A stretch of 64,000 bases of DNA from a virus, in the IMG/VR virus record IMGVR_UViG_3300025425_000012. One strand, written 5' to 3'. Numbering within the stretch: position 1 is the first letter of the stretch; the number at the start of each line of letters is the position of its first letter. The notes beneath the pieces were generated by a model. It did not search any database, was not told where the DNA came from, and saw only the letters and a list, made by a program, of their open reading frames with translations. This document shows, in pieces, positions 3,018 through 53,083 of this stretch. The translations under genes and the position numbers were made by a program.

Positions 3018-3275
3018 TCACCCCAATTTATACAGCAAGTGACCAACTTCGTCAGTAACTCTTTGTTTAAACTCTGGAAAGGATATAGTATCTTCACTTT
3101 TACAAAATTGTAGATTAAGAGGATGCTCAACACCATCAATATATGTAAATAGGAAAATATCATCATTGGGGAAACAACGCATAGAAACATTGTATGCTAC
3201 TTTGTTTATTGTTATACGCATGACTCTCCAATAAAAATAGGCCCGTTCTGTTGCAAGGTGGAGCCCATACCCCAT
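3018..3275 (-). CDS. hypothetical protein
   Basis: 85-aa ORF on the coding strand of the minus block. Confidence 0.3.
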   Translation of the reverse strand: MGYGLHLATERAYFYWRVMRITINKVAYNVSMRCFPNDDIFLFTYIDGVEHPLNLQFCKSEDTISFPEFKQRVTDEVGHLLYKLG

Positions 3276-3721
3276 GTCGTTACGCTGCTAGAGCGTAACC
3301 CATAGGTGCACTATTTTTGTTTGCATCTATAAAGTTTCTTGCGGTTACAGTCGCTTGCGCACTGGCTTCTAGCTTACTCTTTGATACCTGTCGATCCTAT
3401 TTCGACCCCATCATCTACCTACTAAGTTCATTCTTTATCGTTACTAAGCGCTTAGCATGAATATAACGAGTTATCGTAGTAGGTAGGTGGTGGAGTCGCT
3501 GGGTACTGCCCCCAGGTCCAGAATATCTCCAATTCACATAATTGAAGCGATGATTTTATTATACTTCGTTTCTTAGTAGCTTTTCTAAATCTTTTTCATG
3601 TGGCTCATACTCTACCCATAGATCAGGACCAGAGATTTCCCCATGTTGTGGAATGTTACGAGCAGCTATTACACCTGATAAAAAGGCGTGTTTTAGCATA
3701 CGTGCAATTAGCAGTGTCATG

Positions 3722-27632: not shown

Positions 27633-27707
27633 GCCTGTATAGCATTGTGGCAATGCAGCAGCCTTCAAAACTGACGTAAGTGGGTTCGACACCCTCTACA
27701 GGCACCA
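27633..27707 (+). tRNA. tRNA with anticodon TCA (reads UGA): putative opal-suppressor tRNA; amino-acid identity uncertain (Gly/Trp-like)
   Basis: Perfect 7-bp acceptor GCCTGTA/TACAGGC, D GCAT-TGTGGCA-ATGC, anticodon loop CTTCAAA (U33, A37), T GTGGG-TTCGACA-CCCTC, A-CCA. The anticodon stem is weak (3 bp: GCAGC/ACTGA). The anticodon arm is paralogous to the tRNA-Gly(UCC)-like gene at 28526. Confidence 0.45.
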
Positions 27708-31217: not shown

Positions 31218-32255
31218 ATGCACGACACTGTAGTATTTATTGGCAGGTTCCAGCCTTTACATTTGGGACACGAAGCTGTTATTCGCGCAGCTTTAGAAAA
31301 GGGTAAACAAGTTATTGTAGCCGTTGGCTCTAGCTTTGCTTCCCGCACGACGCGAAACCCCTTTACATTTGAAGAACGCAAGCATATGCTTGAAACCGTG
31401 TTTTGTGATGAACCACGGTTAAAAGTCGTGCCTATTGCGGACTATCCTTACGACGATAATAAATGGGTTAATGCTGTTCGCAAGCAAGTAGCTAAGCATA
31501 CTAAGCCTACAGACTCTATTGCTCTTATTGGCTATGCAAAAGATGAAACATCCTACTATTTAAACATCTTTCGTGATTGGGATTCTATTAATGTTCCGGG
31601 ACATGAAAAACTCAACGCGACAGATCTTAGAGTTGAGTTATTTAGTATTGTTCTTGAATGGGAACTTTATAATAACGAGCTGTTATGTAATGGTAAAACT
31701 CTATCCAGTAGGATGATATCAATACTAGATAAACTAGTTGTGAAACCAGAATTTGTACAACTATCTAAAGAGTATGCGCTTATCCAAACCTACAAAGAAG
31801 CTTGGTCTGTTGCACCTTATGAGCCTACTTTTCATACAGTAGATGCTCTTGTTGTTCAGTCTGGTCATGTTCTTCTTGTTAAACGTAAAGCTGCTCCTGG
31901 CATAGGGTTGTGGGCGCTTCCTGGAGGGTTTCTAAACCCTAAAGAAACTACAAAAGACGGAGCACTTCGTGAGCTTCGAGAAGAAACTAAAATTAAAGTA
32001 TCTCAGACTATCTTAGAAAGCTCAATCAAAGGCAAGCAAGTCTTTGATGAACCTAACCGCTCTACTCGCGGTCGAACAATTACTACTGCTTTTCACTTTC
32101 AACTATCTGATAAGTTTGATTTCCCTAAAGTTAAAGGTTCAGATGATGCAGAAAAAGCTAAATGGGTTCCTTTCGAGCGTATTCGTTCACAGGATATGTT
32201 TGAAGATCACTATCACATTATTGACTACTTTCTTAATATCGCAGGTGATGCATGA
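31218..32255 (+). CDS. natV: bifunctional NMN adenylyltransferase / Nudix ADP-ribose pyrophosphatase (NadM-Nudix, phage NatV type)
   Basis: N-terminal VVFIGRFQPLHLGHEAVI (HxGH nucleotidyltransferase). C-terminal Nudix box GGFLNPKETTKDGALRELREETKI. Confidence 0.8.
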   Translation: MHDTVVFIGRFQPLHLGHEAVIRAALEKGKQVIVAVGSSFASRTTRNPFTFEERKHMLETVFCDEPRLKVVPIADYPYDDNKWVNAVRKQVAKHTKPTDSIALIGYAKDETSYYLNIFRDWDSINVPGHEKLNATDLRVELFSIVLEWELYNNELLCNGKTLSSRMISILDKLVVKPEFVQLSKEYALIQTYKEAWSVAPYEPTFHTVDALVVQSGHVLLVKRKAAPGIGLWALPGGFLNPKETTKDGALRELREETKIKVSQTILESSIKGKQVFDEPNRSTRGRTITTAFHFQLSDKFDFPKVKGSDDAEKAKWVPFERIRSQDMFEDHYHIIDYFLNIAGDA

Positions 32256-32450
32256 AACGTAGAGTAATAACATATAAGTACAAGCCAGGCTGGTGGGGTA
32301 TTATGGATTATAAAACCTATGACACTACAGAAGCTAAGGTTGATGCTTTTATTAAAGTCTTTACTAAAACATTACCAAAATACTACCACGTAACAGTAAT
32401 AACTTTAGACGGATAGACCGTCGAACAGAACAGCAAAAGGAGTTTTTGCA

Positions 32451-33956
32451 ATGAAAAATATTCTATCAGTACTAACCGCTATCCTACGAGTTGATGGCTA
32501 TAAGCCTTCCCAATGGGTACAAACACCTACTAACACTACGGGAATCAGTTCTTATATTGAGTCCCGTGGCGGAGCAGCAAAAAGTGTCTTCTTCGGCCCA
32601 CAAGCCTTTATTAAAGAGTATCTACTAGTACCTATTACAGTAAGCGATGTTAAGTTTGCAAAAGCTGTATTTGCGATTTATGGCGCACCCTTCAATGAAG
32701 AAGGTTGGATGACTATTGTAAACGAGTATGGCGGCTTTCTACCTCTTGAGATTGAGGCAGTACCAGAAGGTACTTATATGGAGACACGCAACGTACAGGT
32801 ACAGGTTACTGCTACTGATGATCGTCTAGCATGGTTGACCTCGTATGTTGAAACCGCGCTTCTACGAGGTGTATGGTATCCTTCTACCGTTGCTAGTGAG
32901 TCAAGAGAATACAAAGTTATGTTGTTAAAAGGTCTGTATGCAACCTCTGATATTCCTATAGATGTTCTACGTGATGTAGTAGTAAAGTTCTCGCTGCATG
33001 ACTTTGGTGCTCGGGGCGCTTCTTCTTCAGAAACAGCTGTATTAGGTGGTATGTCACACCTTGTTAACTTCTGGGGAACAGATACTGTTGAAGGACTTAT
33101 CGGAGCGTATAGCTTCTATAATGCTGATATTACGAGTGCAGATGCTCCACCAGTCGGTAGGACTGTTCCTGCCTCTGAGCATAGTGCTATCACTTCTTGG
33201 GGCCGTGCTAATGAAGCTGCTGCTTTTGAAAATATGATTGATCAGTTTAGTGAGCCAGGTTCTATCTATGCTTGCGTTTCTGATAGTTTTGATATTTACA
33301 ACGCAACTTCAAATATCTGGGGAACTCAACTAAAAGATAAGGTAATTGCTTCTGGGGGTACCCTAGTTGTACGCCCTGACTCAGGTGATCCACTTACTAT
33401 GCCTATCAAAGTACTTGAAATGTTAGCTGAAAAGTTTGGCTATACTGTAAATAGCAAAGGGTATAAGGTACTTGCAGTACGTAAGAGCGATGGAAGCCCT
33501 ATTGTTAAAGTAATTCAGGGGGATGGTCTAGATAAGAAATCACTTCCTATTCTTATTGCCAATATCATAAGTGCTGGTTTTAGTCTTGAAAACATTGCTT
33601 TTGGTATGGGCGGTGGTCTACTTCAAAATGTTAATCGTGACACCTTGAAATATGCAATGAAAGCTTCTGCAATCCGTGTAGGAGAAGGTGACTGGGTAGG
33701 TTTCTCTAAAGACCCTGTTACTGATCCAGGTAAAAAGTCTAAAGAAGGACGCCTTGGCCTTATCTATACTTGCGGTATTGGTAGCTGTAGCTTTAAGACT
33801 GTACCTAAGCATATTGCTGACGAAAAAGGCAAAAATGTTATGCGAGTCGTATATAGAAACGGTAAGCTGCTAGTAGATGATAACTTTGAGACTGTTCGCG
33901 CGCGCGCAGAGGTTCAAGAGATTGAGTTTACTAACGAGCCTGTAGAAAGATACTAA
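32451..33956 (+). CDS. nadV: nicotinamide phosphoribosyltransferase (NAMPT, phage NadV type)
   Basis: 501 aa, full-length NAMPT family. Conserved DGYKPSQW, SVFFGPQAF, GARGASS, VRPDSGDP and IQGDGL segments. Confidence 0.85.
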   Translation: MKNILSVLTAILRVDGYKPSQWVQTPTNTTGISSYIESRGGAAKSVFFGPQAFIKEYLLVPITVSDVKFAKAVFAIYGAPFNEEGWMTIVNEYGGFLPLEIEAVPEGTYMETRNVQVQVTATDDRLAWLTSYVETALLRGVWYPSTVASESREYKVMLLKGLYATSDIPIDVLRDVVVKFSLHDFGARGASSSETAVLGGMSHLVNFWGTDTVEGLIGAYSFYNADITSADAPPVGRTVPASEHSAITSWGRANEAAAFENMIDQFSEPGSIYACVSDSFDIYNATSNIWGTQLKDKVIASGGTLVVRPDSGDPLTMPIKVLEMLAEKFGYTVNSKGYKVLAVRKSDGSPIVKVIQGDGLDKKSLPILIANIISAGFSLENIAFGMGGGLLQNVNRDTLKYAMKASAIRVGEGDWVGFSKDPVTDPGKKSKEGRLGLIYTCGIGSCSFKTVPKHIADEKGKNVMRVVYRNGKLLVDDNFETVRARAEVQEIEFTNEPVERY

Positions 33957-33961
33957 ACGCT

Positions 33962-33998
33962 ATAGAGAGGGGCTAACGCTCCTCTCTATTTCTGTTTT
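33962..33998 (+). terminator. rho-independent terminator (ATAGAGAGG...CCTCTCTAT + T-rich)
   Basis: 9-bp perfect stem directly after the nadV stop, followed by TTCTGTTTT. Confidence 0.65.
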
Positions 33999-34001
33999 AT
34001 A

Positions 34002-34040
34002 TTGCTAATATTGTCAAACAGTGTTATATTAAATTAACAT
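34002..34040 (+). promoter_or_regulatory. sigma70-like promoter TTGCTA-17-TATATT
   Basis: tattgctaatattgtcaaacagtgttatattaaattaacat. Confidence 0.5.
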
Positions 34041-34054
34041 ATAAAGGAAATATT

Positions 34055-34468
34055 ATGCAAGAACTAATCCAAGAAGCAGGCTATCGTCTTACCGTAGATT
34101 CGTGGGAGAATGATGGTGACGCAAATTGTACCGTACACAAAACTTATAAAGATAGAACAAATGCTTATTCTATTTTCACGTTCTTTAATACAATAAAAGA
34201 ACAAGACTTAATGAATTCTGTAGACCAGCTTACTTTAAAGCACTGTCATATTGCTAGAAAAGAGCTTATGCTAATACTACCACAAGAAGCTTTAGAGGAG
34301 CCTACAATGACTGACGAAGATTTAGAAAAAGATACTTGCCTAATGTCGTGTATTCAAGATCTGCTATACGAGTTTGGCCTAACCTCTGAGTACTTTTCTA
34401 TTAGGTATATTGAAAAAGTAAGCTTACATTACTTCTCAGACCCTGTATATGCAGAGGTTATTACATAA
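34055..34468 (+). CDS. hypothetical protein
   Basis: 137-aa ORF with RBS aaaggaaatattATG. Confidence 0.35.
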   Translation: MQELIQEAGYRLTVDSWENDGDANCTVHKTYKDRTNAYSIFTFFNTIKEQDLMNSVDQLTLKHCHIARKELMLILPQEALEEPTMTDEDLEKDTCLMSCIQDLLYEFGLTSEYFSIRYIEKVSLHYFSDPVYAEVIT

Positions 34469-34480
34469 GAAAGATGTATT

Positions 34481-35152
34481 ATGCACTATATTGGAGACGT
34501 TCACGGTAATTTCAGTGCTTACAAACACCTACTTAGTACCCTACCTGAGAGTGTTCAGATAGGGGATATGGGTGTCGGCTTTGGTCGCTGGGATGAAGAT
34601 CCTTTAGAACAAGCACGTGTTGATATGCTTGAGGTAGCTCAAGGAGCTAATCATAAGTTTATTCGTGGTAATCACGATAATCCAGCTGTTTGCAAGTCTA
34701 TGAACTCGTATATTGCTGACGGTACTGTAGTAGGTAATACTATGCATATCGGCGGGGCACTTTCTATTGATGCTAACATGCGTACTGCTGCTTGGGATTA
34801 TTGGGAAGATGAAGAGCTTTCTTATGATGAACTTTTTAACCTAATTGATGTATATGAGAAGGTAAAACCTGAAATTATGGTTACTCATGAATGCCCAGAA
34901 AGTGTGGTTGGGCACCTTTTTAATTGGTATGCTAAAGAGCAATGGCCTTCTAGAACTAGGCAGGCTTTTGATTCTATGTTTGCTATTCATAAGCCTAAGA
35001 TTTGGGTTTTTGGTCACTGGCATTATAGCGTATTTAGCACACAATTAGGTACTACGTTTATTTGTCTGAACGAGCTGAGCACAATCGAAATCACAGATAC
35101 TTATATCAGTGATATTAAACCTTTTAACCAAGGATGGTTACTAAAACCATGA
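34481..35152 (+). CDS. metallophosphoesterase (calcineurin-like; ApaH / PP-lambda-like)
   Basis: GDVHGN (motif I), GDMGVGFGRW (II), RGNHDNP (III) and ...HWHY metal ligands. Confidence 0.6.
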   Translation: MHYIGDVHGNFSAYKHLLSTLPESVQIGDMGVGFGRWDEDPLEQARVDMLEVAQGANHKFIRGNHDNPAVCKSMNSYIADGTVVGNTMHIGGALSIDANMRTAAWDYWEDEELSYDELFNLIDVYEKVKPEIMVTHECPESVVGHLFNWYAKEQWPSRTRQAFDSMFAIHKPKIWVFGHWHYSVFSTQLGTTFICLNELSTIEITDTYISDIKPFNQGWLLKP

Positions 35153-35586
35153 AGATACGTTACGTAAATTCAGATCTAACTACCGCCCGTGAGCGTTTTA
35201 TCGCTCACGGGTGTAATGCTCAAGGAGTTATGGGTTCAGGAGTAGCTAAAGCTATTAGAGCAAAGTGGCCTAGAGCATATAAAGAGTACAATGAACGATA
35301 CAAGATTGCAGGCTTAGGTACAGGTGAAGTTATACCTGTGTTTTATGATGATAAGACTATCCTTAACTGTATCACCCAAGAACGGTATGGCCGAAGCGGT
35401 GAACAATATGTAAGCTACGAAGCTGTTCGATTATGTATGAAGCTTATTAATAATAACTTCTCTATTGATAGCCGTGTTGCTATGTCTAAGATCGGATCGT
35501 CTTTAGGCGGTGGAGATTGGTCAATTATCTCTGAGATTATCGAGGCAGAATCTACAAATTTTATACCCATTGTCTACGAAATATAG
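35134..35586 (+). CDS. macro-domain protein (ADP-ribose binding/processing)
   Basis: IAHGCNAQGVMGSGVAKAIRAKWP fits the macro-domain diphosphate-binding loop (H..N..G.MG.GIA). Confidence 0.45.
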   Translation: MVTKTMKIRYVNSDLTTARERFIAHGCNAQGVMGSGVAKAIRAKWPRAYKEYNERYKIAGLGTGEVIPVFYDDKTILNCITQERYGRSGEQYVSYEAVRLCMKLINNNFSIDSRVAMSKIGSSLGGGDWSIISEIIEAESTNFIPIVYEI

Positions 35587-37129: not shown

Positions 37130-37500
37130 CACAATGACCTTGAAACCTATGTGCAATAATAACTACAAAGGTGACAGTCTGGAGAGTGACAGACATTACA
37201 GAAGACCCTGCATACGGTCCAGGGTCTATAAACATAAAATACAGGTTACTCTGTAGGACTCTGAGCCGCGCTAGATATGGCCCGAACGTAAGGTTCAAGA
37301 AGTATCAGGCTAGGGAACAGCTAGCCAACTAATTAAGCAGGGTTCAATTCCCTCGCTGATACCATACAGAAGACCCTGTATCAACCTGAGGGTCGTTAAA
37401 TATGAAGAGAAGGTAACTTCTCAGGTCTATGCTAGCACCGTGTTCCGAGGTCATACTCATAAGGAGAGAGTATCGGAAAGCTATGGAGTAGATAGCAAAC
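37130..37500 (+). ncRNA. ORF-free structured region with duplicated ACAGAAGACCCTG hairpin motif and a 62-nt tRNA-like minidomain (37303-37364, ends GGGTTCAATTCCC-TCGCTGATA-CCA)
   Basis: Two copies of acagaagaccctg...cagggtc / ...gagggtc hairpins at about 37195 and 37365. T-loop and CCA end present without a full cloverleaf. Confidence 0.3.
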
Positions 37501-37539
37501 TAATTAATACTTAACTATGATAATAAATCTTCTTTTAAC

Positions 37540-37580
37540 TTGCCTATTCCTTAATTTTGTTGTAATATAATTTATAGACG
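37540..37580 (+). promoter_or_regulatory. sigma70-like promoter TTGCCT-17-TAATAT
   Basis: acttgcctattccttaattttgttgtaatataatttatagac. Confidence 0.45.
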
Positions 37581-37600
37581 GAATTTAAAAGGATTATACA

Positions 37601-37888
37601 ATGCGTACAGGCAAAAAAAGTAGTAATCATCCCAGCTATATAACTCTTTACGAGTTAGTTATAAAATTAGCAAACTCTCGTGAGTTTTATCATGGGTACA
37701 CTGATTATCGTGCAGGCAAGCCTTTTGCTTATGATATGAATATTGGTATACCTTACGAACGAGGACGGTTATTTGCGTTATATATATCTCAATCTCTAGG
37801 ACCAAAAGCTGTCTGGCGTAAAGGTGTTCTAGCAAAAACTACGCAACAGATACTAAATAATGCTTTTGTGTTACGTAGAATACTTTAA
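37601..37888 (+). CDS. hypothetical protein
   Basis: 95-aa ORF with RBS aaaaggattatacaATG. Confidence 0.35.
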   Translation: MRTGKKSSNHPSYITLYELVIKLANSREFYHGYTDYRAGKPFAYDMNIGIPYERGRLFALYISQSLGPKAVWRKGVLAKTTQQILNNAFVLRRIL

Positions 37889-37903
37889 AATGTATCTTTT
37901 AGT

Positions 37904-37940
37904 TTGCATATTGCTTGCGAATCAGATATATTAAGAATAT
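37904..37940 (+). promoter_or_regulatory. sigma70-like promoter TTGCAT-17-TATATT (no ORF downstream)
   Basis: agtttgcatattgcttgcgaatcagatatattaag, followed by about 230 nt of non-coding sequence. Confidence 0.45.
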
Positions 37941-38178
37941 ATTACTATTGTTGGGAGAATAAAGGTCCGCCTTAATGACCAAAGAATTGACAAGCTCTTT
38001 ATCACTCTTAATAAACCTTGTCGGTTATCTGCTTTCTGTGATAAGAGATTGAAAGCTCAAATAAGCATTCTCTAGGTTAGCTACTTGAGAATGATCTTAA
38101 CAACAATAGTAGTATGTTACCAAGTAACTATATCCTTAATTACTTGATAGCATACTAGATAAAAAATCTGTTTTAAAC

Positions 38179-38215
38179 TTGCTAATTGCTTAAATTATTG
38201 ATATTATGAGATATA
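38179..38215 (+). promoter_or_regulatory. sigma70-like promoter TTGCTA-17-TATTAT (no substantial ORF downstream)
   Basis: aaacttgctaattgcttaaattattgatattatgag. Confidence 0.45.
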
Positions 38216-38388
38216 AGAACTTCTTGACGTATTATCTACGTACTAATTATGTATTCCTTATATAGTGAAGTTCTTATAATTTGCTTACTGTTCAGTAACT
38301 CACTCAGCGTTGGGGGATGACGTCGTTTAATAGCAAACACAGCTTGCAATACCGTGAGGCAAGCTACTAAAAAAAATTAATTTTAATC

Positions 38389-38425
38389 TTGCTCTATGCT
38401 TGATTTTGGTTTATATTAAGATAAT
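38389..38425 (+). promoter_or_regulatory. sigma70-like promoter TTGCTC-17-TATATT (drives non-coding transcript)
   Basis: aatcttgctctatgcttgattttggtttatattaag. Confidence 0.45.
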
Positions 38426-38880
38426 AAGAATTGGCGGTATAGCGTCATTAAGGATACCATATAGCAATATATGCAAAGAGGTGATTTCTACATAACCTCA
38501 CTACTCTAGTAGTAGCCTATCTATAAAACCCTAAGTTAGTTGTAACCGTGTATGCATGAAGTGCAACGCTTCATTAATGGAGCTAGGTAAGAAGTTAAGT
38601 ATATAGTCCGAAAGGATAAGTCCAGGCCAACGGTGAGGACGAATACGGTGGGAGCTGTAACTACGTAATTCCAACTTAACGATTACTAAATACTAATAGG
38701 AGATTACGTTATAGTCTGACTATTCGCGTAGAAAGGCGACGTAATAACACAAACGGTGAGGGCTTTAACGAGCCAAAGTCGTGAAGTGTGGTTGAGTATC
38801 CCGCAAGGAGAAAAACAGGAGGTGTGTTGCATTTTGTATCTAACAAGGTATGAAGCAACTGGAACAGCACATCTTAGTAG
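38426..38880 (+). ncRNA. candidate long structured non-coding RNA (no ORF >60 aa, GC-richer than surroundings)
   Basis: Promoter-proximal, ORF-free, multiple local hairpins. Ends at a tRNA-like element. No family recognised by eye. Confidence 0.25.
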
Positions 38881-38952
38881 ATTAACTTAGTCCAATGGTT
38901 AGGACGTCTGATCCCACATCAGAAGTTAAGAGTTCGAGTCTCTTAGTTTTTA
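38881..38952 (+). tRNA. tRNA-like pseudo-element (CCA-anticodon-like loop TCCCACA; U.U mismatches in acceptor; followed by T-run)
   Basis: D GTCC-AATGGTTA-GGAC, stem TCTGA/TCAGA, T AAGAG-TTCGAGT-CTCTT. Acceptor ATTAACT/AGTTTTT pairs only 5 of 7. Positions 33 and 37 are both C, which is non-canonical. Confidence 0.3.
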
Positions 38953-39454
38953 TGAAAAAAGCGAAAGACTGTTCCGGTATATTGTTAAAAGTGCTTAATG
39001 CCTTAGTCGAAAGACAATAAGGCTCATGATAGCTCGCAAGGCAGGATTGATTGTTCGGAAAGAAGACGTAATAGTTTAGCGACTATGAACTGCCCGACGA
39101 AGGTAGACGGAAGATTGAAAGACGAGTAGCAATATGCGACAGGAGAACCGCCTCTCCTCAAAAAAGGCAGCACTGAGAGATACTAGGATAGCTTCGGCAC
39201 TTAGTGGATACGAATTAACGCTCCATAGCAACGGATACGGTACGGTTCTAAGGCTCTCACTCGATGGTGTAATCTCAGCCAATCTACAAAAAAACTTTGA
39301 TGTTAGATAAAGCTAACACGACCAGAGATAACACTGGGTGCTAAAGTGATACTAGCAAAACACAATCCGTGTCAGTTGCGTTACCCGCTGGCTAATGGTG
39401 GTATGCTGTGCCCACTAACTATAATTATTTTAATGATACATAGAATACCAATAT

Positions 39455-39528
39455 ACCTTGTGGACCCTTTTGATATGGGTATGGGCGCGAGTTCAATGTT
39501 CTAGGTTCGAATCCTGGACAAGGTACCA
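39455..39528 (+). tRNA. tRNA-like pseudo-element with degenerate anticodon arm
   Basis: Perfect acceptor ACCTTGT/ACAAGGT, D ACCC/GGGT, T CTAGG-TTCGAAT-CCTGG, A-CCA. The anticodon region TGGGCGCGAGTTCAATG has no stem. Confidence 0.3.
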
Positions 39529-39831
39529 AGATAATATGCTGACGATGACTCACATAGCCCTATGAATGAGAAACGTAATATTAGTCTTTAGAGCTAAGCA
39601 GTATATTTAATCATTAGTCGTATGAGAAGTGCGGGCAATTTAGTTATTATCATTAACTAAGCTAATGTTTACTAATTTAAGAGATAATATGCACTAATCT
39701 GTATAATTGTTATTATGTTGCTTACTTCACCCAAGTGATATGATATTTACCCCCTTCTTGCCTTGTGAAGAAGCTAGGAAGTAAAGTAGTTATAAGTGTT
39801 TCTACATTATACAGTTTAGTCTATATTATAT

Positions 39832-39908
39832 TGCGAGGTAGGGGAGCGGTCGTCCCCACTGGGCTCATAACTCAGAAATCGTAGGTTCGAATCCTACCCA
39901 CGCAACCA
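39832..39908 (+). tRNA. tRNA-Met (anticodon CAT), second CAT tRNA
   Basis: Acceptor TGCGAGG/CCACGCA (one mismatch), D GGGG-AGCGGTCGT-CCCC, stem CTGGG/CTCAG, loop CTCATAA, T GTAGG-TTCGAAT-CCTAC, A-CCA. Confidence 0.6.
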
Positions 39909-40143
39909 AACTTTATTGCAGGATAGCCTTAAGCTAGATAAGTTGTGAAACTTATTGTGAGTTAAACCCTCTCTCCTGCAACCATATTCAAAGAAAGATT
40001 ATACAATGAACATTCAGAAGTCCCTCCAGCATCTACAGAATAGCGTCGCTTCTTTTAGCGCGGTGTCGGCTGATGAAGCGGATTCTAATGACTTGCAGGC
40101 TTTTGGTATGCTCTAAACATAGAGCAAAAGCATAATATACCAA

Positions 40144-40177
40144 AAGCCGCTCCTACTAGAGCGGCTTTTTTGTTTTT
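40144..40177 (+). terminator. rho-independent terminator (AAGCCGCTC...GAGCGGCTT + TTTTTTGTTTTT)
   Basis: 9-bp perfect stem with a 6-nt loop and a long T-run. Confidence 0.8.
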
Positions 40178-40185
40178 AAAAGTTC

Positions 40186-40222
40186 TTGCATATCATCTAA
40201 TTATATGTTATCTTAAATTAAG
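40186..40222 (+). promoter_or_regulatory. sigma70-like promoter TTGCAT-17-TATCTT
   Basis: gttcttgcatatcatctaattatatgttatcttaaattaag, upstream of the HNH gene. Confidence 0.45.
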
Positions 40223-40259
40223 AAATAAAGGACACACTAACAACTAGGGAGATTAAACC

Positions 40260-40796
40260 GTGTCAAATATTAAATATCCGGCACTTGTTTTAAATGCTGA
40301 TTACAGTCCTATTAGTGTGTTTCCGCTATCTACTTGGGGTTTTGAAAGAACTTTACGAAACTTCTTAAAAGGAAGAATTACACCACTAGAGCACTATGAT
40401 GTTACGCTACGTTCTCCGTCTTTTGAGTACCAGCCGCCTTCGGTTATTGCTTTAAAGAAATACGTAAAACGACCACAGAATGTTGTATTCAATAGAGTAA
40501 ACATTTTCAGACGAGATAACTTTACTTGTCAGTATTGTGGTGATGTTCACTTGCCAAGAGATCTAACTTTTGACCATGTTGTTCCTCGCGCTAATGGCGG
40601 TCCAACTTCGTATGAAAACATTGTAGCATGTTGTGTTCCTTGTAATACTCGTAAAGGTTCATCTACTCACATGAAACCTGTGAGAACACCTAAAGTACCT
40701 TCTGTTAGAGATCTAGCACGAGCTAGTCCTCCAAAAGAAAAACTTCACGCTTCTTGGATAGACTATCTATACTGGAGCGGTGTATTAGAACAGTAA
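40260..40796 (+). CDS. HNH endonuclease
   Basis: CQYCGDVHLPRDLTFDHVVPRANGGPTSYENIVACCVPCNTRKG (HNH core with Zn Cys ligands). GTG start as listed. Confidence 0.7.
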   Translation: MSNIKYPALVLNADYSPISVFPLSTWGFERTLRNFLKGRITPLEHYDVTLRSPSFEYQPPSVIALKKYVKRPQNVVFNRVNIFRRDNFTCQYCGDVHLPRDLTFDHVVPRANGGPTSYENIVACCVPCNTRKGSSTHMKPVRTPKVPSVRDLARASPPKEKLHASWIDYLYWSGVLEQ

Positions 40797-52854: not shown

Positions 52855-53082
52855 ATGAAACATACTATACTAGGAAAGAGCCGTATCTGGGTAGGCGCAC
52901 TTAGCCAACCTCGACCCTATCATGATATTACACAGCGCGACCCAAACGATGTTTGTTTTTATAAAACTAAGTACTGGGCACTTTATGTAGGTTTTTATGA
53001 ATCAATAAAAGACGATTACTCAACAGATTTCACTGGAGGTTGTTACGCAGGTAATGAAGAACCTAAGAGAAATCATTTTTAA
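52855..53082 (+). CDS. hypothetical protein
   Basis: 75-aa ORF with RBS taaggtataatATG. Confidence 0.35.
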   Translation: MKHTILGKSRIWVGALSQPRPYHDITQRDPNDVCFYKTKYWALYVGFYESIKDDYSTDFTGGCYAGNEEPKRNHF

Positions 53083-53083
53083 C

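What the first reader, a model, noticed from the sequence alone, without database searches (positions are those of the whole stretch)
37890..40005. 2.1-kb protein-free island with three copies of the early-promoter motif, several tRNA pseudo-elements and one true tRNA-Met: probable ncRNA factory
No ORF longer than 60 aa falls between 37.89 and 40.0 kb (the 68-aa ORF at 39076-39282 runs through GC-rich structured RNA and looks spurious).

Three well-formed promoter copies (37904, 38179, 38389) fire into non-coding sequence. The sequence is GC-richer than average and full of stems.

It contains the tRNA-like elements at 38881 (CCA-type loop, non-canonical positions 33 and 37, two U.U acceptor mismatches, T-run after it) and 39455 (perfect acceptor, D and T arms but no anticodon stem). 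A bona fide tRNA-Met(CAT) sits at 39832.

These look like deliberately maintained tRNA mimics rather than decayed genes. They could be decoys for host tRNA-targeting nucleases (PrrC/RloC/VapC-like anticodon nucleases, retron or PARIS-type tRNA-cleaving defences), or Y-RNA-like partners for the Rsr-like protein.
Basis: partly seen in the sequence, partly recalled or inferred. Interest (0 to 1): 0.7.

Follow-up and report, generated by a model that had tools for sequence, protein, structure and literature searches.

The report
Phage GOLLD RNA gene with flanks
The protein-free island is mostly a gene for GOLLD, a known giant structured phage RNA that carries a tRNA-shaped insert and sits among tRNA genes, so its core is an ordinary new member of a known but functionally unexplained RNA family.

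Summary
The raw observations hold: there is no credible ORF, three copies of a recurrent sigma-70-like promoter, two tRNA-like elements and a real tRNA-Met.

The interpretation missed the main point. Window 38819-39281 (+) matches Rfam GOLLD (RF02032) at 167 bits against a gathering score of 150 (E 4e-45). The ~390 nt upstream (38433-38818) are homologous to the 5' domains of other phage GOLLD RNAs and show compensatory pair changes. Conservation starts about 8 nt after the third promoter. That promoter therefore drives an ~860-nt GOLLD RNA.

The "tRNA mimic" at 38881 is the tRNA module in the GOLLD linker. It sits at the same register in more than 50 related loci, and this arrangement is described in the literature. 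The 68-aa ORF is antisense to GOLLD and spurious.

Still unexplained and without homologues:
- two promoter-driven leader or small RNAs (37945-38160, which folds strongly, and 38215-38365)
- a CCA-ending tRNA-like element with a degenerate anticodon arm (39455-39531)

The Y-RNA idea found no support. The nuclease-decoy idea is untested, and the comparative signal for it is weak.

Verdict: a new member of a known kind, of modest interest.

The parts
37904..37943 (+). Promoter copy P1: -35 TTTGCA, conserved spacer TTGCTT, -10 TATATT.
   Evidence: Motif search and alignment of the 10-member promoter family. The sigma-70-like scan also finds it.
37943..38160 (+). Orphan structured RNA or leader ('RNA1'). 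An 11-bp closing stem (37943-37953 with 38101-38111) encloses a multi-branch fold, followed by a long hairpin at 38110-38157. It also contains a 25-aa hydrophobic ORF at 37975-38052.
   Evidence: Fold z-score is -5.4 with 0 of 200 shuffles as stable, and the hairpin alone gives z -4.8. There is no Rfam match, no homologue in about 200 GOLLD loci and no paralogue in the window. The ORF is listed.
38179..38207 (+). Promoter copy P2: TTGCTA, 17 nt, TG-extended TATTAT.
38212..38365 (+). Orphan leader or small RNA ('RNA2'), with a 12-bp closing stem and a 7-bp hairpin just before P3.
   Evidence: Fold z-score is only -2.0. No homologue or Rfam match was found.
38389..38418 (+). Promoter copy P3, the GOLLD promoter: CTTGCT, spacer ATGCTT, -10 TATATT. 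The inferred start is near 38425.
   Evidence: Conservation with other GOLLD 5' domains begins at 38433.
38426..38818 (+). GOLLD RNA 5' domain, the variable half. It includes the conserved CCGAAAGG hairpin at 38609-38616.
   Evidence: nhmmer finds homology to the sequence directly upstream of the Rfam-GOLLD hit in L049, L032, L012, DSS3P8, L079, L106 and L071, with E from 2e-19 to 2e-4. RNAalifold predicts 80 pairs, 57 with compensatory changes. The start motif GGCGGTATAGCGTC resembles the 5' end of the cryo-EM construct env-38.
38819..39281 (+). GOLLD RNA 3' domain, the conserved half.
   Evidence: Rfam RF02032 scores 167.2 bits against a gathering score of 150, E 3.8e-45, covering model positions 1-416 in full. 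It is 70-76% identical to about 40 IMG/VR GOLLD genes.
38881..38952 (+). tRNA-like module in the GOLLD linker. It has a cloverleaf with perfect D, anticodon and T stems, loop UCCCACA (C33, C37), U.U at 2:71 and 3:70, and no CCA.
   Evidence: ARAGORN and Rfam tRNA call it at 49.2 bits. It sits at the same register as embedded tRNAs in 19 of 107 GOLLD loci, and in nearly all members of the closest sub-lineage.
39455..39531 (+). Orphan tRNA-like element. It has a perfect acceptor stem, D and T arms and an encoded CCA, but a degenerate anticodon arm (loop CGCGAGU, G33) and a 3-nt variable loop.
   Evidence: Sequence reading. ARAGORN calls it only in mitochondrial mode, and Rfam tRNA gives no hit at E<=1. 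No parent was found among 1160 tRNAs.
39832..39908 (+). tRNA-Met(CAT), canonical, with encoded CCA.
   Evidence: Homologous tRNA-Met genes lie downstream of GOLLD in several relatives.
40006..40116 (+). 36-aa ORF whose ribosome-binding context (GATTATACAATG) is the same as that of the 95-aa ORF at 37601.
   Evidence: One metagenome annotation calls it as a gene (L125).
40142..40176 (+). Strong intrinsic terminator, the only one on the + strand between P1 and 40.2 kb. It is the probable end of the GOLLD / tRNA-like / tRNA-Met transcription unit.
   Evidence: Terminator scan. The fold gives -28 kcal/mol and z -6.1.
40260..40796 (+). HNH endonuclease gene with its own promoter copy at 40186. HNH genes recur next to GOLLD.
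   Evidence: Pfam HNH, E 5.6e-13. Similar HNH genes lie near GOLLD in L061, L069, L071 and L083 and in mycobacterial tRNA arrays (PMC6582537).

Best explanation
**What it is.** The island is an RNA-gene segment of the tRNA region of an uncultivated ~148-kb phage. The phage carries a tmRNA of the alphaproteobacterial type. The core of the island is a GOLLD RNA gene.

**Shown.**
- An ~860-nt RNA gene spans about 38426-39285 (+).
- Its 3' half passes the curated GOLLD model.
- Its 5' half is homologous to other GOLLD 5' domains and co-varies structurally with them.
- A copy of the phage's recurrent sigma-70-like promoter ends about 8 nt before the conserved 5' end.
- The variable linker between the first helix of the 3' domain and the rest holds a tRNA-shaped module, at the position where many GOLLD RNAs hold a tRNA.

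**Inferred.**
- The host RNA polymerase fires from P3, possibly reinforced by P1 and P2.
- The transcript folds into a 5' 'cap' domain and a 3' 'ring' domain. Like the solved env-38 GOLLD, it would assemble into a multimeric RNA cage with the linker pointing inward, here carrying the tRNA-like module.
- Transcription runs on through the orphan tRNA-like element and tRNA-Met to the terminator at 40142-40176. RNase P and 3' processing would release the tRNA and define the GOLLD 3' end.

**The linker module.** In this phage it has lost the marks of a decoding tRNA: C33, C37, a weak outer acceptor stem and no CCA. It is most likely a structural part of GOLLD rather than a tRNA precursor.

**Function.** The biological role of GOLLD is unknown for the whole family. 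Its constant company of tRNA arrays and tmRNA points to a role in translation or tRNA handling during lytic growth.
For: **GOLLD identity.**
- Rfam GOLLD scores 167.2 bits against a gathering score of 150, E 4e-45, with the full model matched.
- The same family is detected in the protein-level relatives of this phage: MD18, DSS3P8 and phiCbK. It is also detected in 12 of 13 metagenomic loci scanned.
- The 5' domain is homologous to seven other GOLLD loci, E down to 2e-19.
- 57 of 80 predicted pairs in the 5' domain show compensatory changes.
- Conservation starts at 38433, right after P3.
- The 865-nt RNA folds better than all 20 shuffles, z -3.5.

**Linker tRNA module.**
- It lies at a fixed register, -376 to -404 nt from the 3' motif, in 19 of 107 loci. 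It is also present in nearly every member of the closest sub-lineage.
- The window shares its anticodon stem TCTGA/TCAGA with L071 and L054, but their loops differ.

**Transcription unit and context.**
- No + strand terminator occurs before 40142.
- The surroundings are 29 tRNA genes, a permuted tmRNA and an HNH gene. This is the published GOLLD context (PMC12286853, PMC6582537, PMC12990946).
Against: - The GOLLD score is only 17 bits above the threshold, lower than most relatives (150-230 bits).
- No expression data exist for this phage. The transcription start, the 3' end and co-transcription with the downstream tRNAs are all inferred.
- Cage assembly is extrapolated from one solved homologue that is too diverged to align residue by residue.
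- GOLLD accounts for only about 41% of the island. RNA1, RNA2 and 39282-39830 have no homologue anywhere, so their roles are not explained by this model.
Confidence: 0.85

Rival explanations
1. One reading: the two tRNA-like elements are independent, deliberately maintained tRNA mimics. They would act as decoys for host tRNA-cleaving defences (PrrC, RloC, VapC, PARIS, retron types) or as Y-RNA-like partners of a Ro/Rsr-like protein.
For: - Embedded modules in related GOLLD genes keep the cloverleaf and usually U33 and R37, while the 'anticodon' changes identity. There are 23 distinct loops in 37 unique modules, and 18 loops within one otherwise fixed scaffold.
- The outer acceptor stem is systematically weak. 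Pairs 1-3 are kept in 69%, 37% and 60% of embedded modules, against 93-96% in 677 free-standing tRNAs. That fits a non-chargeable display of an anticodon arm.
- Frequent loop types (Lys-UUU/CUU, Arg-UCU, Asn-GUU) include tRNAs that I recall from general knowledge as known nuclease targets.
- A homologue of the DUF2828/VWA protein lies next to GOLLD in L117.
Against: - The 38881 element is part of GOLLD, not a free RNA.
- In this window both elements lack a canonical anticodon loop (C33/C37, and G33 with a mismatched stem). That makes them poor mimics for enzymes that read the anticodon loop.
- Loop variability is not exceptional. It ranks 157 of 1049 seven-column windows in a GOLLD alignment.
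- Among near-identical genomes, 65 of 72 pairs share the same loop. This is compatible with relaxed constraint.
- No Y-RNA model matches.
- The DUF2828 protein has no sequence match to solved Ro60 structures and lies 15 kb away.
Confidence: 0.1
2. 'Inhibited storage': the linker element is a genuine tRNA precursor kept inside the GOLLD assembly and released by processing when needed.
For: - The idea was proposed for a Mycolicibacterium GOLLD with an embedded tRNA-Phe (PMC12990946).
- Some embedded tRNAs in relatives look fully canonical, scoring up to 68.7 bits with 7 of 7 acceptor pairs (L013, L069, L117, L079).
Against: - The window's copy has C33 and C37, two U.U mismatches in the acceptor stem and no encoded CCA. 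By contrast, 26 of the 28 free-standing tRNAs of this phage encode CCA.
- The phage already has two normal tRNA-Trp(CCA) genes.
- Close relatives with the same anticodon stem carry different 'anticodons'.
- No expression of the embedded pseudo-tRNA was detected in Mycobacterium (PMC6582537).
Confidence: 0.07
3. The flanks of GOLLD are not a 'factory'. RNA1 and RNA2 would be leaders or insulating terminator-promoter modules, and the 39455 element would be a decaying tRNA pseudogene left by rearrangement of the tRNA array.
For: - There is no homologue of 37890-38400 or 39282-39830 in about 200 GOLLD loci or in the phage database.
- The post-GOLLD region folds no better than shuffles, z +0.2 and -1.1.
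- In relatives, tRNAs abut GOLLD on both sides where the window has these orphan stretches.
- Hairpin-plus-promoter modules recur at P2, P3 and 40186.
- The 39455 element fails both tRNA detectors.
Against: - RNA1 folds far better than chance, z -5.4.
- In the 39455 element the acceptor, D and T stems are all perfect and CCA is kept, while only the anticodon arm is disrupted. Uniform decay would not do that.
- All metagenomic copies are 100% identical, so constraint cannot be read from them.
Confidence: 0.45
4. P1 drives a tiny protein gene rather than an sRNA: the 25-aa hydrophobic peptide MTKELTSSLSLLINLVGYLLSVIRD (37975-38052). Its mRNA is closed by a long 5'-3' stem, as in type I toxin mRNAs.
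For: - The ATG lies 71 nt after the -35 element, a similar distance to the other promoter-to-gene units.
- An AAGG lies 9 nt upstream of the ATG.
- The peptide has a hydrophobic core with charged ends.
- An 11-bp stem brackets the ORF.
Against: - No homologue exists and no antisense promoter of the family was found.
- The ORF is short enough to arise by chance in AT-rich DNA.
- Nothing could be tested comparatively.
Confidence: 0.08

Closest known systems
GOLLD RNA (Rfam RF02032; env-38 cryo-EM structure, PDB 9MEE, PMC12286853)
   Same: - The 3' domain matches the curated model end to end.
- An upstream structured 5' domain of about 390 nt is present, and total length is about 860 nt.
- The conserved GAAA hairpin is present in the 5' domain.
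- A variable linker follows the first 3'-domain helix.
- It is phage-borne and sits among tRNA genes, with a tRNA-Met downstream.
   Different: - The primary sequence is too diverged from env-38 for residue-level mapping.
- The linker carries a tRNA-like module, whereas env-38 has a 42-nt disordered linker.
- Oligomer formation is untested here.
GOLLD genes of roseophages MD18, DSS3_MAL1 and DSS3P8, and of Caulobacter phiCbK-like phages
   Same: - Their hosts are alphaproteobacteria, and this window's tmRNA is of the alphaproteobacterial type.
- The genomes are large, with tRNA arrays and a permuted tmRNA.
- GOLLD has an embedded tRNA in MD18 (annotated tRNA-Arg) and phiCbK (annotated tRNA-Gly).
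- The NAMPT protein is about 54% identical.
   Different: - In MD18 and DSS3P8 the tmRNA follows GOLLD directly. Here it is 35 kb away on the other strand.
- There is no nucleotide-level synteny.
- The window's GOLLD has its own promoter plus two extra upstream promoters.
GOLLD within mycobacterial horizontally transferred tRNA arrays (PMC6582537; Morgado et al. 2020, as cited in PMC12286853)
   Same: GOLLD sits inside a tRNA cluster of about 30 genes, has a pseudo-tRNA inside the GOLLD gene, and has an HNH endonuclease gene alongside.
   Different: That one is a chromosomal or prophage context in Actinobacteria, and its RNA was detected by Northern blot. Here the context is a lytic-type metagenomic phage contig with no expression data.
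ROOL RNA
   Same: It is a large ornate phage RNA near tRNA islands that forms RNA-only cages.
   Different: Its sequence and fold are unrelated, and no ROOL match exists in the island at E<=1.
Bacterial Y RNAs (YrlA) with a tRNA-like domain, partners of Rsr/Ro60
   Same: It is a non-coding RNA that contains a tRNA-shaped module lacking decoding function.
   Different: - From general knowledge, the YrlA tRNA-like domain is closed at the acceptor end and joined to a Ro-binding stem, and it is encoded next to rsr.
- Here no Y-RNA model matches.
- The candidate protein is DUF2828/VWA with no detectable Ro60 similarity.

Membership tests
GOLLD RNA (RF02032) | The conserved 3' domain scores at or above the curated gathering threshold over the whole model. 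| tested here: met
   167.2 bits against 150, model positions 1-416 of 416, E 3.8e-45.
GOLLD RNA (RF02032) | A structured but less conserved 5' domain of about 400 nt lies directly upstream, giving an RNA longer than 800 nt. | tested here: met
   38433-38818 is homologous to the 5' regions of seven other GOLLD loci. 57 of 80 pairs show compensatory changes. Total length is about 860 nt.
GOLLD RNA (RF02032) | A variable linker in the 3' region that can hold a tRNA. | tested here: met
   The insert lies at model positions ~62-140 and contains a cloverleaf. It is at the same register as the embedded tRNAs of relatives.
GOLLD RNA (RF02032) | Encoded in a phage or prophage, next to tRNA genes. | tested here: met
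   The window has 29 tRNA calls and a tmRNA. Its proteins resemble those of phages.
GOLLD RNA (RF02032) | Assembles into a symmetric RNA-only multimer (cage). | not testable with these tools
   This is known only for env-38 and a Streptococcus 3' domain (PMC12286853, PMC12990946). It needs in-vitro transcription plus cryo-EM or mass photometry.
GOLLD RNA (RF02032) | Expressed as one long RNA, rising during lytic growth. | not testable with these tools
   No transcript data are available. Only a promoter at the right place and the absence of internal terminators are shown.
Canonical decoding tRNA (element 38881-38952) | Cloverleaf recognised by tRNA models. | tested here: met
   ARAGORN calls Trp(cca), and Rfam tRNA scores 49.2 bits.
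Canonical decoding tRNA (element 38881-38952) | U33 and purine 37 in the anticodon loop. | tested here: not met
   The loop is UCCCACA, with C33 and C37. It is the only one of 32 seven-nt-loop embedded modules with either feature.
Canonical decoding tRNA (element 38881-38952) | A fully paired 7-bp acceptor stem and a 3' CCA, as in the phage's other tRNAs. | tested here: not met
   U.U mismatches occur at 2:71 and 3:70, and there is no CCA. By contrast, 26 of the 28 free-standing tRNAs encode CCA, and free-standing tRNAs pair these positions in 96% of cases.
Canonical decoding tRNA (element 39455-39531) | Acceptor, D and T arms plus CCA. | tested here: met
   7/7, 4/4 and 5/5 pairs, a TTCGAAT loop and an ACCA end.
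Canonical decoding tRNA (element 39455-39531) | A regular anticodon arm and recognition by tRNA models. | tested here: not met
   ARAGORN makes no call in standard, relaxed (ps80) or intron modes for this cloverleaf. Only mitochondrial mode draws a stem, with a G.A mismatch and G33. Rfam tRNA does not reach E<=1.
Bacterial Y RNA / Rsr partner | Match to a Y-RNA covariance model, and a location beside an rsr (TROVE) gene. | tested here: not met
   No Y-RNA family reaches E<=1 at 37500-40300 or 53000-58000. The nearby protein hits DUF2828, DUF7788 and VWA_2 but not TROVE, and has no PDB sequence match.
tmRNA remnant (for 39282-39831) | A tRNA-like domain with G3:U70 and a tmRNA model match. | tested here: not met
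   The acceptor pair 3:70 is C-G. ARAGORN's tmRNA search finds nothing, and Rfam finds nothing.

The most novel reading that the evidence does not exclude
**The reading.** In the GOLLD sub-lineage to which this phage belongs, the linker 'tRNA' is not a tRNA gene. It would be a non-chargeable display of an anticodon arm held inside the RNA cage.

**What points that way.**
- The body and the U-turn geometry of the module are conserved, and the outer acceptor stem is degraded.
- The loop switches between discrete identities: Lys, Arg, Asn, Leu, Ser, Ile types and recurrent 8-nt loops.
- At least one multi-base switch occurred between near-identical genomes (L156 versus L166).

**What it would mean.** The cage would work as a multivalent bait or sponge for something that reads anticodon loops. 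Candidates are host tRNA-cleaving defence nucleases, modification enzymes, or complementary host tRNAs.

**This phage.** It carries a unique C33/C37 loop. The CCA-ending 39455 element with a scrambled anticodon arm would be a second, free-standing member of the same strategy.
Probability: 0.12. Interest if true: 0.7.

Novelty: new member of a known kind. Interest (0 to 1): 0.3.

Why it matters
GOLLD is one of the largest bacterial and phage non-coding RNAs. It forms a cage bigger than a ribosome, and its function is still unknown.

This instance adds three things:
- A clean transcription unit: its own sigma-70-like promoter sits at the exact conserved 5' end, and a downstream terminator closes the unit.
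- A lineage of marine and lake phages of alphaproteobacteria in which nearly every GOLLD carries a linker tRNA-like module.
- A copy in which that module has clearly lost its decoding features while keeping its fold. This argues that the module can be a structural or functional part of GOLLD rather than cargo.

For annotation, the lesson is practical. A 'protein-free, GC-rich, stem-rich island with an odd tRNA' in a tRNA-rich phage should be checked against GOLLD and ROOL models first.

Tried and rejected
1. **Close relatives for covariation of the flanks.**
 - Megablast of 20 kb against 50,697 phage records found nothing.
 - The flanking 95-aa ORF is an orphan in IMG/VR and in the 5.8-billion-protein set.
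 - All contigs that encode it are 100% identical, or differ by 3 substitutions in 8.4 kb. No microdiversity could be used.
2. **Homologues of the orphan stretches.** nhmmer and BLAST of RNA1, RNA2 and 39282-39830 against about 200 GOLLD loci and against the window itself returned only promoter similarity.
3. **Known RNA families for the flanks.** At E<=1 Rfam gives only chance-level hits, such as mir-26.
4. **tmRNA remnant after GOLLD**, as in MD18 and DSS3P8. Rejected: there is no G3:U70 and no tmRNA call.
5. **Y RNA / Ro partner.** Rejected on the model scans and the protein searches.
6. **A parent tRNA for the 39455 element.** None stands out among the 29 tRNAs of the window or 1160 tRNAs of related loci.
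7. **Residue-level mapping onto the solved env-38 GOLLD.** The pairwise alignment is about 44% identical and not trustworthy.
8. **Anticodon loop of the linker module as a uniquely hypervariable hotspot.**
 - It was first suggested by two near-identical pairs.
 - It was toned down after wider sampling. 65 of 72 near-identical pairs share the loop, and all 7 discordant pairs trace to one switch.
 - The loop ranks only 157 of 1049 windows for entropy.
9. **Structure-pair count on the module alignment.** The first count was mis-registered for the D and anticodon helices, because the window has one extra D-loop base. It was replaced by a per-sequence parse.

Full report
**1. The observation**

The window is AT-rich (37.5% GC) and phage-like. 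ARAGORN finds 29 tRNAs and a permuted, alphaproteobacterial-type tmRNA.

- **ORFs.** The longest ORF is the 68-aa minus-strand ORF at 39076-39282.
- **Promoters.** The three promoter copies at 37904, 38179 and 38389 belong to a family of about ten + strand sites. The motif is an A/T-rich UP tract, CTTGCW, N3, WTGCTT, about 12 nt, TATAWT. Other copies sit in front of protein genes (37540, 40186, 20578, 35598) and of a tRNA (53740).
- **GC content.** Only 38.5-39.55 kb is GC-richer than average. The first 600 nt are AT-rich.
- **tRNA-like elements.** The element at 38881 and the tRNA-Met at 39832 are called by ARAGORN and Rfam. The element at 39455 has the perfect acceptor, D and T arms described, plus an encoded CCA. 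No standard tRNA detector calls it.

**2. What the core is**

A whole-window Rfam scan places a GOLLD RNA (RF02032) at 38819-39281 (+). It scores 167.2 bits against a gathering score of 150 (E 3.8e-45) and matches the full model.

The Rfam model covers only the conserved 3' half of GOLLD. The published RNA has a variable 5' domain of about 420 nt and a 3' domain of about 415 nt (PMC12286853). I therefore looked upstream.
- nhmmer with window 38400-38820 finds the sequence directly upstream of the Rfam-GOLLD hit in seven other loci. These include Roseobacter phage DSS3P8, and E-values run from 2e-19 to 2e-4.
- In the alignment, conservation begins at GGCGGTATAGCGTC (38433), about 8 nt after the -10 element and inferred start of promoter P3. 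This motif resembles the 5' end of the cryo-EM construct env-38.
- RNAalifold on seven sequences predicts 80 pairs, 57 of them with compensatory changes.
- An invariant CCGAAAGG hairpin matches the conserved GAAA loop described for the 5' domain.
- The 865-nt RNA folds better than all 20 shuffles, z -3.5.

So P3 drives an ~860-nt GOLLD RNA spanning about 38426-39285. The 68-aa ORF is antisense to it. Its only 'homologues' are other GOLLD genes.

**3. The first tRNA mimic**

The 38881-38952 element lies inside the GOLLD linker, at model positions about 62-140.

It sits at a conserved register.
- Among 107 IMG/VR loci that carry the GOLLD 3' motif, 19 have an ARAGORN tRNA at the same register.
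- In the sub-lineage closest to the window, nearly every member has one. This sub-lineage comprises about 40 loci, 70-76% identical over 38576-39280.
- MD18 and phiCbK have one too.

The arrangement is already in the literature.
- A tRNA-Phe lies in J13/15 of a Mycolicibacterium GOLLD (PMC12990946).
- A pseudo-tRNA lies inside a mycobacterial GOLLD that also has an HNH gene alongside (PMC6582537).

The window likewise has an HNH gene, at 40260-40796.

A per-sequence parse of 37 unique embedded modules shows the following.
- D stems (4/4) and T stems (5/5) are perfect in all. Anticodon stems are 5/5 in most.
- Acceptor pairs 4-7 are kept in 34-35 of 35.
- Acceptor pairs 1-3 are kept in only 24, 13 and 21 of 35. 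In 677 free-standing tRNAs from the same loci these pairs hold in 93-96%.
- Position 33 is U in 29 of 32, and position 37 is a purine in 31 of 32.
- The window is the only module with C33 and the only one with C37.
- It shares its anticodon stem TCTGA/TCAGA with L071 (loop CUUUUAA) and L054 (loop CUUCUAA).

The 'Trp-CCA' label is therefore an accident of a diverged loop. The element also lacks the CCA that 26 of the 28 free-standing tRNAs of this phage encode. I conclude that it is a structural module of GOLLD and has lost its decoding features.

**4. Loop identity in relatives**

The 'anticodon' changes between related modules. There are 23 distinct loops among the 37 modules. Within one otherwise fixed scaffold (GGTAGAGCAATTCC-loop-GGAATCGGC), 56 loci from IMG/VR and JGI metagenomes carry 18 loops.

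Two near-identical pairs first suggested targeted hypervariability. Wider sampling tempers this.
- 65 of 72 near-identical pairs share the same loop, and the 7 discordant pairs reflect a single switch.
- The loop ranks only 157 of 1049 seven-column windows for entropy in a 32-sequence GOLLD alignment.

The data fit a loop that keeps its U-turn geometry but is free, or occasionally selected, to change identity.

**5. The flanks**

*RNA1 (37943-38160).*
- It folds much better than chance, z -5.4. An 11-bp closing stem is followed by a long hairpin just before P2.
- It also contains a 25-aa hydrophobic ORF.

*RNA2 (38212-38365).* Its fold is only marginal, z -2.0.

*39282-39830.* This stretch folds no better than shuffles.

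None of these stretches has a homologue in about 200 GOLLD loci, in the phage database, in Rfam, or elsewhere in the window. In relatives, ordinary tRNA genes abut GOLLD on both sides where the window has these orphan stretches.

*The 39455 element.*
- It has no identifiable parent tRNA.
- ARAGORN in mitochondrial mode draws a weak anticodon stem with loop CGCGAGU, G33, and a 3-nt variable loop.
- Three perfect stems plus CCA beside a disrupted anticodon arm are not what uniform decay would give. Without comparative data I cannot separate a recent pseudogene from a maintained mimic.

*Transcription unit.* The only + strand intrinsic terminator between P1 and 40.2 kb is at 40142-40176. GOLLD, the orphan tRNA-like element, tRNA-Met and a 36-aa ORF are therefore probably one transcription unit. 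This is inferred.

**6. Source and relatives**

- Contigs encoding the flanking 95-aa orphan protein occur in several metagenome assemblies (Logan, ENA, JGI). They reach 148 kb and are 100% identical over the island.
- No deposited phage is similar at the DNA level.
- NAMPT is about 54% identical to DSS3P8-like roseophages. These phages also carry GOLLD next to a permuted tmRNA.

**7.

'ncRNA factory' is fair as a description. The main product, however, is a known RNA family.

The Y-RNA idea fails every test available.
- No Y-RNA model matches.
- The supposed Rsr-like protein hits DUF2828, DUF7788 and VWA, not TROVE, and has no PDB sequence match.

The decoy idea remains speculative. In this phage both elements lack a canonical anticodon loop.

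**8. Verdict**

The island is a GOLLD RNA gene with its own promoter and a degenerate linker tRNA module. It is flanked by lineage-specific, unexplained RNA-like sequence and sits in a phage tRNA region. It is a new member of a known kind. Interest is modest and rests mainly on GOLLD's unsolved function and on the non-decoding linker module.

Noticed in passing
window 3189-3591 (-): A permuted (two-piece) alphaproteobacterial-type tmRNA gene with tag peptide ANKNSAPMGYALAA. In the related phages MD18 and DSS3P8 the tmRNA sits directly after GOLLD (L001 3196-3611, L002 3153-3539). Here it is 35 kb away on the opposite strand.
   Followed up: partly
window 27633-27707 (+): ARAGORN calls this 'tRNA-SeC(tca)', but it is a normal-length 75-nt tRNA scoring 48.5 bits in Rfam tRNA. 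It looks like a UGA-reading (suppressor or recoding) tRNA rather than a true selenocysteine tRNA.
   Followed up: no
window 22449-53883 (+): All 29 tRNA calls are on the + strand. 26 of the 28 free-standing ones encode their 3' CCA, usually followed by A. No tRNA-Ala or tRNA-Tyr is present in the window.
   Followed up: partly
window 31218-35586 (+): An NAD-salvage and ADP-ribose cluster. It holds an NMN adenylyltransferase-Nudix fusion (31218-32255), NAMPT (32451-33956), a metallophosphoesterase (34481-35152) and a Macro-domain protein (35134-35586).
   Followed up: partly
It may be a recurrent neighbour of GOLLD and tRNA arrays. No Ro60 similarity was detectable by sequence.
   Followed up: partly
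window 40260-40796 (+); L061, L069, L071, L083: The HNH endonuclease next to GOLLD has 32-37%-identical counterparts within a few kb of GOLLD in four other loci. This echoes the GOLLD-plus-HNH pairing reported in mycobacterial tRNA arrays.
   Followed up: partly
loci L156 vs L166 (also L199, L206, L182); L135 vs L146: Near-identical GOLLD genes, with 5-10 differences in 800-960 nt, carry different loops in the linker tRNA-like module. L156 has ATTGATAA and L166 has ATTTTGA. L135 has ATTGAAG and L146 has CTCTTAA, with 67 of 67 identity in the rest of the module. The 8-nt loop ATTGATAA recurs on different anticodon stems.
   Followed up: yes
window 40006-40176 (+): A 36-aa ORF shares the exact translation-start context (GATTATACAATG) with the 95-aa orphan ORF at 37601. 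A strong bidirectional terminator follows it at 40142-40169.
   Followed up: no
loci L069 6278-6629, L071 7158-7524, L028 1457-1832: GOLLD loci from other metagenomic phages carry tmRNAs of different classes close to GOLLD: betaproteobacterial type in L069 and L071, alpha/permuted type in L028. The tRNA array, GOLLD and tmRNA seem to travel together across host classes.
   Followed up: no
window 38110-38157, 38341-38365, 40142-40169: Three of the ten promoter copies (P2, P3 and the one at 40186) are immediately preceded by a hairpin whose downstream A/T tract doubles as the promoter's UP element. This suggests terminator-promoter cassettes.
   Followed up: partly
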